52,961 nucleotides of DNA from Escherichia phage mEp013: sequence record PP180002; one strand, given 5' to 3'. Each line of letters starts with the position of its first letter. Position 1 is the first letter of the stretch. The notes below the pieces were generated by a model. That model saw only the letters and a program-made list of their open reading frames with translations. It was not told the DNA's origin and did no database searches. The translations under genes were made by a program, and so were the position numbers. This document shows positions 49,828 through 50,107 of this stretch, one piece after another.

Positions 49828-49832
49828 AAAAT

Positions 49833-49860
49833 AACCCCGCTTCGCGCGGGGTTTTCTTTT
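49833..49860 (+). terminator. rho-independent terminator after J
   Basis: AACCCCGC-TTCGC-GCGGGGTT followed by TTCTTTT. Confidence 0.75.
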
Positions 49861-50107
49861 AGTAGTTAGCTACACAGTTCGACGGGCTACCGATGCGGCG
49901 CATGTTGTGATCGAGTTCATGACACCATTGCCCAGTATACGGCAGTTTTTCAGTGTCATAGACAAGATGACCGCTTCCATCATATACAACATCTTGTGGA
50001 ATCACTCCGCTATTCGGCAGGTTATGCAATGCAGCCTCTTTGTCAACAGCACAGCCAGTAAGAGCTACAGCCGCAGCGAACAAAACCACTTTGAACACGT
50101 TTCCCAT
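49859..50107 (-). CDS. small lipoprotein (moron) downstream of J
   Basis: 82 aa; signal peptide with lipobox LTGC; RBS GAGGA. Confidence 0.65.
   Translation of the reverse strand: MGNVFKVVLFAAAVALTGCAVDKEAALHNLPNSGVIPQDVVYDGSGHLVYDTEKLPYTGQWCHELDHNMRRIGSPSNCVANY

What the first reader, a model, noticed from the sequence alone, without database searches (positions are those of the whole stretch)
49831..50107. Lipoprotein moron after J, next to a terminator module duplicated at 42309-42344
An 82-aa lipoprotein (lipobox LTGC) is encoded antisense immediately after J, the position where Cor/Lom-type exclusion or virulence genes sit in other lambdoid phages. The J terminator plus about 15 downstream bases (AACCCCGCTTCGCGCGGGGTTTTCTTTTAGTAGTTA) recur with one mismatch at 42309-42344, again at the boundary of a minus-strand cassette. 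This looks like a portable junction used when morons were acquired.
Basis: seen in the sequence. Interest (0 to 1): 0.5.

Follow-up and report, generated by a model that had tools for sequence, protein, structure and literature searches.

The report
Known exclusion lipoprotein, twin terminator hairpins
The small gene after the tail-tip gene J encodes an already published lipoprotein that stops other LamB-using phages (including lambda) from infecting the host, and the "duplicated junction" is a pair of related transcription terminators at two fixed places in this phage family's tail gene cluster, not a mobile element.

Summary
An 82-aa lipoprotein gene (49859-50107, minus strand, lipobox LTGC) lies antisense directly after J. 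A 36-nt terminator module recurs at 42310-42345 and 49833-49868 (35/36 identical; none expected by chance). The window is almost certainly coliphage mEp013 of the mEpimmI group. Its lipoprotein is the published "type-C Lpp". The mEp010 allele, identical in the mature protein, was cloned and excludes the LamB-dependent phages mEp010, mEp044, mEp554 and lambda, but not mEp013 (PMC11893012). So the exclusion reading is correct but already known. The "portable junction" reading is only partly right. In about 50 related genomes the hairpin stem CCCCGC/GCGGGG occurs only at these two backbone positions: after the M-adjacent 61-65-aa ORF, and after J. It is present whether or not a minus-strand cassette follows, and mosaic breakpoints lie exactly at its edges. 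The full module is confined to this phage group plus Cronobacter phage CSP1. Near-perfect identity of the two copies is limited to three genomes, and most relatives carry the M-L loop reverse-complemented. The best reading is two related bidirectional terminators at convergent gene junctions, occasionally homogenised by ectopic recombination. The finding is ordinary. Its one open point is how a lipoprotein blocks LamB.

The parts
45313..49827 (+). J (tail tip / host-specificity protein, 1504 aa). Its last ~150 aa (...VSHGSGSFSG) belong to the receptor-binding type shared with mEp010/044/554, CSP1, KurtStettler (Bas22, LamB) and 9g.
   Evidence: receptor data from PMC11893012 and PMC8594841
49828..49862 (.). 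Bidirectional intrinsic terminator between the convergent J and lpp genes: A-tract 49828-49832, stem-loop 49833-49853 (AACCCCGC-TTCGC-GCGGGGTT), U-tract TTCTTTT 49854-49860. The lpp stop codon (49859-49861) lies inside the U-tract.
   Evidence: Terminator scan hits on both strands. RNA fold -14.5 kcal/mol on the + strand (z -3.9) and -17.3 kcal/mol on the - strand. Annotated as an ARNold-predicted terminator in the mEp044, mEp554 and mEp010 records.
49859..50107 (-). lpp, the type-C Lpp superinfection-exclusion lipoprotein (82 aa; lipobox LTGC; Ala at +2; conserved Cys62 and Cys78).
   Evidence: (phrog_12984 'lipoprotein', E=1.3e-26); function from PMC11893012
50108..50201 (-). lpp 5' region: RBS GAGGA (50116-50120, 8 nt before the ATG), tandem 9-mer GCTCATCCG x2 (50131-50148), and the presumed promoter region. 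Similarity to mEp021-type genomes, which carry another cassette, resumes at about 50202.
   Evidence: No strong sigma-70 consensus was found in the mEp group. CSP1 has TTGACT-16-TATATT at the aligned position.
50284..52833 (+). Side tail-fibre gene (849 aa, C-terminal Peptidase_S74 chaperone domain), preceded by the conserved GATCACAAAATGGTAGAAT element.
42120..42305 (+). Conserved 61-65-aa ORF after minor tail gene M (41755-42108). Its stop codon directly precedes the upstream hairpin.
   Evidence: (phrog_3249)
42304..42345 (.). Upstream (M-L) copy of the module: stem-loop 42310-42330 with a stem-breaking G>T at 42326, U-tract 42331-42337, then the stop codon and last codons of the 45-aa ORF.
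   Evidence: Fold -7.4 kcal/mol against -14.6 for the intact mEp021 copy. Not picked up by the terminator scan. The stem is intact in all 50 relatives examined.
42336..42473 (-). 45-aa ORF with a signal-peptide-like N-terminus (...FGVHA|AD). It ends in N-Y-stop, inside the repeat.
   Evidence: A homologue is present in 30 of 45 loci.
42484..43335 (-). The rest of the minus-strand accessory cassette between M and L: an 82-aa KilAC/ANT-like ORF (42484-42732), a 116-aa ORF (42742-43092), a 51-76-aa ORF (43105-43335, probable start 43260), and a sigma-70-like promoter TTGATA-17-TATATT (43335-43307).
   Evidence: (PF03374, E=2.7e-7)

Best explanation
The locus is a convergent-transcription junction in a phage of the mEpimmI group, almost certainly mEp013. 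J (+ strand) and a small antisense gene, lpp, end at a shared bidirectional intrinsic terminator. lpp encodes the type-C Lpp, a lipoprotein with no Asp at +2, so it is predicted to be sorted to the outer membrane. When expressed it makes the cell refractory to phages that use the LamB porin. It therefore acts as a receptor-directed superinfection-exclusion factor that is inherited together with a LamB-type J receptor-binding end. Shown: the sequence, the lipobox and the position; published exclusion by the allele with an identical mature sequence; and co-occurrence with LamB-type J ends in four phage groups. Inferred: outer-membrane location; direct action on LamB; and a Cys62-Cys78 disulfide. 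The second copy of the terminator, at 42310, is a related copy of the same hairpin at the other convergent junction of the tail cluster, where a four-gene minus-strand cassette abuts the M-side operon. The hairpin is a family-wide backbone feature at both sites. Because it is conserved while its neighbours vary, exchanged segments begin and end at its edges. The near-identity of the two copies in this genome (35/36, reaching 8 nt past the U-tract into the last codons of both antisense ORFs) is best explained by an occasional ectopic copy or gene-conversion event between the two sites. The direction of that event is unresolved.
For: Identity of the phage and the protein:
- The region is 87-96% identical to mEp044, mEp554, mEp010 and mEp021.
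- The protein equals mEp010 Lpp except for K2G, which is the substitution reported for mEp013.
- The mEp013 record PP180002 is absent from the search collection.

Function:
- Lpp010 excludes mEp010, mEp044, mEp554 and lambda. mEp013 needs LamB.
- Homologous lipoprotein genes sit antisense after J in KurtStettler (Bas22, which targets LamB), 9g, EP23 and CSP1, alongside a homologous J C-terminus.
- C19 and C78 are invariant and C62 is nearly so.

Terminator:
- The terminator scan hits both strands. The fold energy is -14.5 kcal/mol (+ strand) and -17.3 kcal/mol (- strand).

Backbone position of the hairpin:
- In 45 genomes the stem occurs only at the M-L junction (42 direct hits, plus 2 behind an extra + strand ORF) and at the J end (14 with type-C lpp, 3 with no lpp).

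Breakpoints at the hairpin edges:
- M-L junction: the left 60 nt have median 84.5% identity to the window. The right 60 nt are at random level (48-58%) in 32 of 50 genomes.
- J end: the right 60 nt have median 97% identity. The left 60 nt are at 53-65% in 10 of 18 genomes.

Module specificity:
- Full-length matches occur only in mEpimmI phages and CSP1, and in 13 IMG/VR contigs of 28-70 kb (most 53-55 kb). The flanks of all 13 hits place them at the M-L or J-end junction.

Lineage-specific homogenisation:
- The J-type tail TTTTCTTTTAGTAGTTA occurs at the M-L site only in the window, L058 and L059. All three also carry type-C lpp.
Against: - The mEp013 allele itself (K2G in the signal peptide) has not been tested.
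- No convincing sigma-70 promoter for lpp was found in the mEp group, so expression in the lysogen is assumed.
- No termination data exist for either hairpin.
- On the minus strand the M-L copy is followed by a poor U-tract (GUUAUUAUA). In this genome its stem is broken (-7.4 kcal/mol on the + strand).
- Gene conversion is not statistically supported. All 3 genomes with the J-type tail carry lpp, but so do 8 of the 12 others (hypergeometric p about 0.36, my arithmetic).
- Both ORF families natively end in x-N/D-Y/F-stop, so part of the 8-nt extension could be coincidence.
- The AlphaFold model is poor (pLDDT 56.7), so nothing structural supports the mechanism.
Confidence: 0.8

Rival explanations
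1. Portable recombination junction. The hairpin module is a linker or boundary sequence whose homology actively directs insertion and exchange of minus-strand morons. The two copies mark two such acquisition events.
For: Mosaic breakpoints fall exactly at the hairpin edges at both sites. The same stem flanks at least four different downstream sequences at the M-L junction and at least four different J 3' ends. Both sites are where antisense cassettes sit. The hairpin remains when the cassette is absent (L049, L052, L085), as expected of a target or linker site.
Against: The module is found at only two fixed positions and only on the terminator side of the cassettes, never on the promoter side. 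Other J-end cassettes use unrelated terminators. It is absent from unrelated phages. A 21-42-nt homology is short for RecA- or Red-type exchange. Selection for intact genes and working terminators alone would put surviving breakpoints in the same place.
Confidence: 0.15
2. Independent convergence. The two hairpins are unrelated terminators that look alike because strong terminators in this host share GC-rich stems and U-tracts.
For: Generic partial matches (E from 1e-3 to 1) to the hairpin and U-tract occur in hundreds of unrelated phage records. A third, unrelated terminator in the window (23186-23227) is 62% similar.
Against: 35/36 identity, including the 5-nt loop and 8 nt beyond the U-tract, with zero expected by chance. 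The same stem recurs at both sites across about 50 genomes.
Confidence: 0.03
3. The lipoprotein mainly serves the host or virulence, like lambda Bor or Lom (serum resistance, adhesion). Alternatively, it is inactive in this phage, and exclusion is a side effect of over-expression.
For: Exclusion was shown only from an IPTG-induced Ptac plasmid. No native promoter was identified. mEp013 itself is not excluded by Lpp010. The K2G change removes one positive charge from the signal peptide's n-region.
Against: Exclusion is receptor-specific: Lpp010 acts on LamB users and Lpp021 on OmpA users. The gene is tightly co-inherited with LamB-type J ends in both temperate and virulent phages, where a host-fitness role makes little sense. 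There is no similarity to Lom or Bor families.
Confidence: 0.07

Closest known systems
Type-C Lpp of mEpimmI phages (Lpp010, mEp010 gp116; Negrete-Mendez et al. 2025, PMC11893012)
   Same: 81 of 82 residues are identical, and the mature protein is identical. The position (antisense between J and the tail-fibre gene) and the terminator are the same. The K2G difference is the one reported for mEp013.
   Different: The mEp013 allele itself was not tested. mEp013 is the one LamB-dependent phage of the set that Lpp010 does not exclude.
Cor (T1, phi80, N15, HK022) and Llp (T5): FhuA-directed superinfection-exclusion lipoproteins
   Same: All are small lipoproteins of about 75-80 aa with conserved cysteines, encoded next to the receptor-binding gene. 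T1 cor is also antisense, with a terminator overlapping its 3' end. All give receptor-specific exclusion.
   Different: No sequence relationship exists beyond the signal peptide and lipobox (hhalign aligns only residues 1-23). The target is LamB, a plug-less trimeric porin, so the plug-mediated 'reverse allostery' shown for Llp-FhuA (PMC9586334) cannot apply as such.
Putative exclusion lipoproteins downstream of J in LamB-targeting Queuovirinae and Dhillonvirus phages (Bas22 KurtStettler, 9g, Seurat, CAjan, EP23)
   Same: They are true homologues (50-66% identity, invariant PNSGV...TGQW...SNC..Y), in the same antisense position after a homologous J C-terminus. A hairpin sits between the two genes, with a compensatory stem change in 9g.
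   Different: The phage backbones differ (virulent, 44-60 kb). The hairpin sequence has diverged (loops TAAT or GAAA; stem CCCCTC/GAGGGG in 9g). No second copy of the hairpin was seen, although only the loci next to J were examined.
Morons and their flanking terminators (Juhala/Hendrix model) and 'boundary sequences' at lambdoid module junctions (Clark et al. 2001); both cited from my own knowledge
   Same: A promoter-gene-terminator unit lies between genes that are adjacent in relatives. Short conserved sequences coincide with mosaic breakpoints.
   Different: Here the conserved hairpin belongs to the backbone: it is present without the cassette and bounds only one side of it. No evidence shows that it directs recombination.
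Lambda lom (the gene after J in lambda)
   Same: Position only: it lies immediately downstream of J.
   Different: lom is on the same strand as J and encodes a beta-barrel outer-membrane protein, not a lipoprotein. No Pfam match links the two.

Membership tests
mEpimmI type-C Lpp exclusion lipoproteins | Lipobox [LVI][ASTVI][GAS]C after a hydrophobic leader | tested here: met
   LTGC at residues 16-19 after MGNVFKVVLFAAAVA
mEpimmI type-C Lpp exclusion lipoproteins | Sequence identity to Lpp010 and other type-C members | tested here: met
   81/82 identical to mEp010, differing only at K2G; 91-96% identical to mEp044, mEp554 and MagusPhagus
mEpimmI type-C Lpp exclusion lipoproteins | Location in the structural cluster, between J and the tail-fibre gene | tested here: met
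mEpimmI type-C Lpp exclusion lipoproteins | Excludes LamB-dependent phages when expressed | not testable with these tools
   Published for Lpp010, whose mature sequence is identical. The window's own allele is untested.
Cor / Llp lipoprotein family (FhuA-directed) | Detectable homology of the mature domain | tested here: not met
   hhalign of the family profile against T1 Cor and T5 Llp aligns only residues 1-23, the signal peptide. No hits in Pfam, NCBIfam, PADLOC or the PDB.
Cor / Llp lipoprotein family (FhuA-directed) | Small lipoprotein gene adjacent to the receptor-binding gene, with conserved Cys residues | tested here: met
   This is a resemblance in kind, not homology.
Intrinsic (Rho-independent) terminator, bidirectional | GC-rich stem, short loop, U-tract on both strands (J-end copy) | tested here: met
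   8-bp stem with 6 GC pairs, 5-nt loop, TTCTTTT on the + strand and ATTTTTTAT on the - strand; fold energies -14.5 and -17.3 kcal/mol
Intrinsic (Rho-independent) terminator, bidirectional | The same features in the M-L copy of this window | tested here: inconclusive
   The stem is interrupted by C.U at 42326 (-7.4 kcal/mol, z -1.9). It was not reported by the terminator scan. The U-tract on the minus strand is poor. The copy is intact in all relatives.
Intrinsic (Rho-independent) terminator, bidirectional | Actual transcript 3' ends at the site | not testable with these tools
   Needs Term-seq, 3' RACE or a reporter assay
Moron (Hendrix/Juhala sense) | The unit is present in some genomes and absent in others between the same flanking genes | tested here: met
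   L049, L052 and L085 have J, the hairpin and the tail-fibre gene with no lpp. mEp021 and mEp515 carry a different cassette.
Moron (Hendrix/Juhala sense) | Own promoter and own terminator | tested here: inconclusive
   The terminator is present, although it also exists without the gene. No strong sigma-70 promoter was found in the mEp group; CSP1 has TTGACT-16-TATATT.
Portable / mobile junction element | The same module at boundaries of different cassettes at varied genomic positions or in unrelated genomes | tested here: not met
   The module occurs at only two fixed positions in about 50 genomes. Full-length matches are confined to the mEpimmI group and CSP1.

The most novel reading that the evidence does not exclude
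The perfectly palindromic terminator stem may be an active hotspot of DNA rearrangement, not just a passive landmark. In this reading it mediates three things: template-switch flips of its own loop (TTCGC/GCGAA and TTCTC/GAGAA both occur as reverse-complement pairs), ectopic conversion between the M-L and J-end copies, and cassette replacement exactly at its edges. It would then function as a short recombination linker that shapes where accessory genes enter the tail cluster of this phage family.
Probability: 0.2. Interest if true: 0.4.

Novelty: already known. Interest (0 to 1): 0.2.

Why it matters
The gene itself has been described and tested, so the finding adds little. Two points retain some value.

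First, this lipoprotein family is the LamB-directed counterpart of Cor and Llp. The T5 Llp structural paper names as an open question how such a lipoprotein can block a porin that has no plug and no known allostery. This window is from the one phage that needs LamB, carries the lipoprotein and yet escapes it. Its J C-terminus, compared with those of mEp010, mEp044 and mEp554, is therefore a ready-made map of candidate escape residues.

Second, the paired hairpins give a clean, countable example of mosaic breakpoints pinned to a terminator, and of loop inversion in a palindromic stem. That is useful for anyone modelling how accessory cassettes are exchanged in phage tail clusters. It is a modest refinement, not a new kind of element.

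Tried and rejected
- **Structure:** AlphaFold2 with the 23-sequence family alignment gave mean pLDDT 56.7 and pTM 0.31. That is too poor for a fold search, so none was run.
- **Sequence and profile searches of the lipoprotein:** Pfam, NCBIfam, PADLOC and the PDB gave nothing meaningful. Only PHROGs matched, with a family labelled just 'lipoprotein'.
- **Rfam:** a search of the whole window at gathering thresholds gave no hit.
- **Native lpp promoter:** the consensus scan and a six-genome alignment gave no convincing sigma-70 site in the mEp group.
- **Direct identification:** retrieving PP180002 (mEp013) to prove identity failed because the record is not in the collection. The paper's main text gives no genome length to compare.
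- **Gene conversion:** the J-type tail at the M-L site occurs only in lpp-carrying genomes, but with 3 against 12 genomes this is not significant (p about 0.36).
- **Borrowed 3' end:** I considered that lpp took its last codons from the 45-aa ORF. I rejected this because Tyr82 is invariant across the lipoprotein family, including phages without the M-L hairpin.
- **Third copy:** the repeat-family member at 23186-23227 (62% identical) is an unrelated terminator.
- **CRP-like site:** a resemblance at 50231-50252 rests on a consensus recalled from memory and was not pursued.

Full report
**What is in the sequence**

J (45313-49827, + strand) ends with TAA at 49825-49827. Five A/T bases follow, then the stem-loop AACCCCGC-TTCGC-GCGGGGTT (49833-49853) and the U-tract TTCTTTT. 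On the minus strand an 82-aa ORF (49859-50107) ends inside that U-tract. It begins MGNVFKVVLFAAAVALTGC, has a GAGGA ribosome-binding site 8 nt upstream of its ATG, and is followed 176 nt later by the + strand tail-fibre gene at 50284.

With the A-rich left flank the match is 39/42. None is expected by chance (0.00 in 100 shuffles at up to 3 mismatches).

One refinement matters. The 'downstream bases' consist of the terminator's own U-tract plus 8 nt that form the stop codon and last two codons (Asn-Tyr-stop) of both antisense ORFs. These are the lipoprotein (...VANY*) and a 45-aa ORF at 42336-42473 (...HINY*).

**Which phage this is, and what the lipoprotein does**

The region is 87-96% identical to E. 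coli phages mEp044, mEp554, mEp010 and mEp021. This is the 'mEpimmI' group described by Negrete-Mendez et al. 2025 (PMC11893012). That paper defines four lipoprotein sequence types. Type C is found in mEp010, mEp013, mEp044 and mEp554, and the mEp013 protein differs from the mEp010 consensus only by K>G at position 2. The window's protein is identical to mEp010's except for exactly that change. The mEp013 record (PP180002) is the one member missing from the searchable collection. I therefore infer that the window is mEp013 or a near-identical phage.

The paper cloned mEp010 gp116 (Lpp010), whose mature sequence is identical to the window's. Its expression excludes mEp010, mEp044, mEp554 and lambda, all of which depend on LamB. 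The type-A lipoprotein of mEp021 excludes the OmpA-dependent mEp021 and mEp515. mEp013 needs LamB but is not excluded by Lpp010.

**How far the family reaches**

The family is small: 25 clusters at E<=1e-3 in a 5.8-billion-protein search, none with a functional name. It has an invariant core (PNSGV, TGQW, SNC, terminal Tyr) and conserved Cys62 and Cys78.

By tblastn it is present in 43 phage records. Beyond the mEp group these include Cronobacter phage CSP1, Seuratvirus and Nonagvirus phages (Seurat, CAjan, 9g, and the BASEL phages KurtStettler, GottfriedDienst, WildeMaa and SeppeHuegi) and Dhillonvirus (EP23, HH3). In the three such loci I inspected (KurtStettler, 9g and EP23), the gene sits antisense directly after the J-like gene. 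KurtStettler (Bas22) targets LamB (PMC8594841). The last ~150 residues of J in the window, mEp010, mEp044, mEp554, CSP1, KurtStettler and 9g form one homologous type ending ...GSGSF[ST]G.

The unit J receptor-binding end, hairpin and lipoprotein gene is therefore old and crosses phage families. Type-C lpp also follows a second, distantly related J end (...SSGSW[AS]) in some genomes. Neither J end resembles lambda J in sequence. The cassette is rare in complete E. coli genomes (12 of 5,426).

**Relation to known exclusion lipoproteins**

Profile comparison with T1 Cor, T5 Llp (my recalled sequence was verified at 100% against T5 records) and the type-A Lpp021 aligns only the signal peptide and lipobox, residues 1-23. 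No Pfam, NCBIfam, PADLOC or PDB match exists. Type-C Lpp therefore works like Cor and Llp but is not a member of that family.

The Llp mechanism is periplasmic binding to the FhuA plug, which folds extracellular loops inward. It cannot simply transfer to LamB, which has no plug. The T5 paper raises exactly this as an open question for the LamB- and LptD-associated lipoproteins (PMC9586334).

From the Ala at +2 I infer Lol-dependent sorting to the outer membrane (established sorting rule; not tested). Lpp010 blocks lambda and three mEp phages but not mEp013, which uses the same receptor. The block therefore probably alters or masks particular LamB features and does not remove LamB. This is inference. 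The AlphaFold model was too weak to help (pLDDT 56.7).

**The terminators**

The J-end hairpin meets the criteria for an intrinsic terminator on both strands. It has an 8-bp stem with 6 GC pairs and a 5-nt loop, with TTCTTTT on the + strand and ATTTTTTAT on the minus strand. The fold energies are -14.5 and -17.3 kcal/mol. The GenBank records of the relatives annotate it as a predicted terminator.

The upstream copy lies directly after the stop codon of the conserved 61-65-aa ORF that follows minor tail gene M. It faces a four-gene minus-strand cassette (42336-43335) with a good sigma-70-like promoter (TTGATA-17-TATATT, 43335-43307).

In this window alone the upstream stem carries a G>T change at 42326, which halves its stability (-7.4 against -14.6 kcal/mol for mEp021). 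All 50 relatives examined have an intact stem.

**Is it a portable junction?**

I collected 44 IMG/VR loci spanning both sites, plus the sequenced phages.

- **Positions.** Within 20 kb around the cassette in 45 genomes, the stem CCCCGC...GCGGGG occurs only at the M-L junction and the J end. At the M-L junction there are 42 direct hits plus 2 behind an extra + strand ORF. At the J end there are 14 with type-C lpp and 3 with no lipoprotein gene at all.
- **M-L junction.** The left flank is conserved (median 84.5% identity over 60 nt). The right flank is at random level in 32 of 50 genomes, because at least four unrelated sequences start immediately after GCGGGGTT.
- **J end.** Here the reverse holds. 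The lipoprotein side is conserved (median 97%) and the J side falls to 53-65% in 10 of 18 genomes, across at least four J 3' ends.
- **Other cassettes.** Other J-end cassettes carry unrelated terminators.
- **Specificity.** Full-length matches to the 42-nt module in 50,697 phage records are confined to the mEpimmI group and CSP1/CSP1C. Everything else is a weak partial hit to a generic hairpin.

The hairpin is therefore neither generic nor portable. It is a backbone feature at two fixed convergent junctions, and mosaic segments begin and end at its edges. Whether it causes recombination there, or merely survives it because a working terminator and intact genes are selected, cannot be decided from sequence. 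I give the active-linker reading about 0.15-0.2.

**Why the two copies are so alike here**

In most relatives they are not. The commonest M-L loop is GCGAA (27 of 50), the reverse complement of the J-end loop TTCGC, which is never inverted (15 of 18; the rest are single substitutions). TTCTC and GAGAA also occur as a reverse-complement pair. Where the 45-aa ORF abuts the hairpin, the usual tail is TTTTCTTGT[CT]AGTAGT, one base longer than the J-end tail.

The exact J-type tail TTTTCTTTTAGTAGTTA occurs at the M-L site only in the window, L058 and L059, and all three also carry type-C lpp. This suggests an ectopic copy or conversion tract of about 36-42 nt between the two sites. With 3 against 12 genomes the association is not significant (p about 0.36).

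The direction is unresolved. The Tyr-stop end is native to the lipoprotein family, since Tyr82 is invariant and similar TTTAGTA tails occur in KurtStettler and 9g. The 45-aa ORF family also natively ends in N-[YF]-stop.

**Verdict**

The exclusion interpretation is correct and already published. The 'portable junction' interpretation is replaced by two related backbone terminators at convergent junctions that mark mosaic breakpoints and are occasionally homogenised. Novelty is low. The residual interest lies in the unexplained LamB-blocking mechanism and in mEp013's escape from its own type of lipoprotein.

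Noticed in passing
42310-42330 and the M-L junctions of L003, L007-L011 and L043-L086: The loop of the palindromic M-L hairpin exists in both orientations across the family: TTCGC (7 genomes including the window) against GCGAA (27), and TTCTC (1) against GAGAA (3). This points to repeated loop inversion by template switching within the stem, or to overwriting from the J-end copy, whose loop is never inverted.
   Followed up: partly
42326: A G>T change breaks the middle of the M-L terminator stem in this window only (-7.4 against -14.6 kcal/mol). All 50 relatives have an intact stem. It is either a private mutation that weakens this terminator or a sequencing error.
   Followed up: partly
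49380-49827 (J C-terminal ~150 aa): The paper reports that mEp013 needs LamB but escapes Lpp010. In the window's J C-terminus several residues differ from all three excluded phages (mEp010, mEp044, mEp554). Examples are EVHANSG against TVYA[TN]DG, RTRDGELVK against R[LS]N[ND]GVL[EQ]K, HVCVM against HICVM, SRKAS against SEK.., and SHGSG against SRGSG. These are candidate escape determinants.
   Followed up: partly
17733, 37193, 43364, 50232 (+ strand): GATCACAWA occurs 5 times, always on the + strand (0.9 expected). Four copies lie 24-190 nt upstream of + strand gene blocks, and three of those blocks resume after antisense cassettes. The motif is conserved in 40 of 44 relatives before L and in 27 of 36 before the tail-fibre gene. 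It lies next to extended -10-like boxes (TGGTATGAT, TGGTAGAAT). This suggests that the tail cluster is several transcription units restarted after each terminator.
   Followed up: partly
17706/17771, 37142/37168, 50172/50202/50235 and elsewhere: The motif (A/C)CATTTTGT(A/G) is enriched (27 hits at up to 1 mismatch against 11.3 expected; no shuffle reached 27). It forms inverted pairs in intergenic regions, for example TATACAAAATGG-N16-CCATTTTGTATA at 37140-37179. It could be a regulator-binding site or a promoter element.
   Followed up: partly
39479-40789 (-) and 6446-7024 (-): A 436-aa antisense ORF inside the tail cluster carries four to five tandem treble-clef zinc-finger repeats (DUF4379/CapR) plus a T5orf172 (GIY-YIG-like) domain. 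A one-repeat paralogue lies in the early region (a 91-nt repeat family with 6 copies; a 300-nt repeat at 75% identity). These look like homing-endonuclease-type genes, which could promote local gene conversion.
   Followed up: partly
42336-42473 (-): The 45-aa ORF has a signal-peptide-like N-terminus (MKIEVLALIIMGLIVFGVHA|AD...) and is conserved (73-96% identity) in 30 of 45 related loci. It may be a small secreted or membrane peptide of unknown function. In many relatives an extra gene sits between it and the hairpin.
   Followed up: no
50131-50148: There is a tandem 9-mer, GCTCATCCG x2, in the lpp 5' untranslated region. Relatives have an imperfect version (CCGGATAAACCGGATGAAC on the lpp strand).
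   Followed up: no
50231-50252 (- strand): TTTTGTGATCTATGTTGCATTT resembles the CRP-binding consensus (about 15 of 22 positions, with the consensus recalled from memory). LamB expression is CRP-dependent, so a CRP-controlled anti-LamB gene would make sense. This is a lead only.
   Followed up: no
L089 (phage 9g) and L087 (KurtStettler), J/lpp junction: The hairpin between J and lpp in 9g has the stem CCCCTC/GAGGGG where the window has CCCCGC/GCGGGG. This is a compensatory double change that preserves pairing in a homologous terminator.
   Followed up: no
161-187 and 52891-52917: A 27-nt direct repeat (89% identical; TGTGTACCAAATAGTGACCAAAATTAT against TGTGTACCAAATTGTGACCAAATTGAT) lies near both ends of the window. 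It may be related to the genome termini or to packaging.
   Followed up: no
L091 (phage T1) 5603-5851: T1 cor is also antisense to the preceding tail genes, and its 3' end overlaps an annotated terminator. This is the same convergent architecture as the lpp locus here.
   Followed up: no
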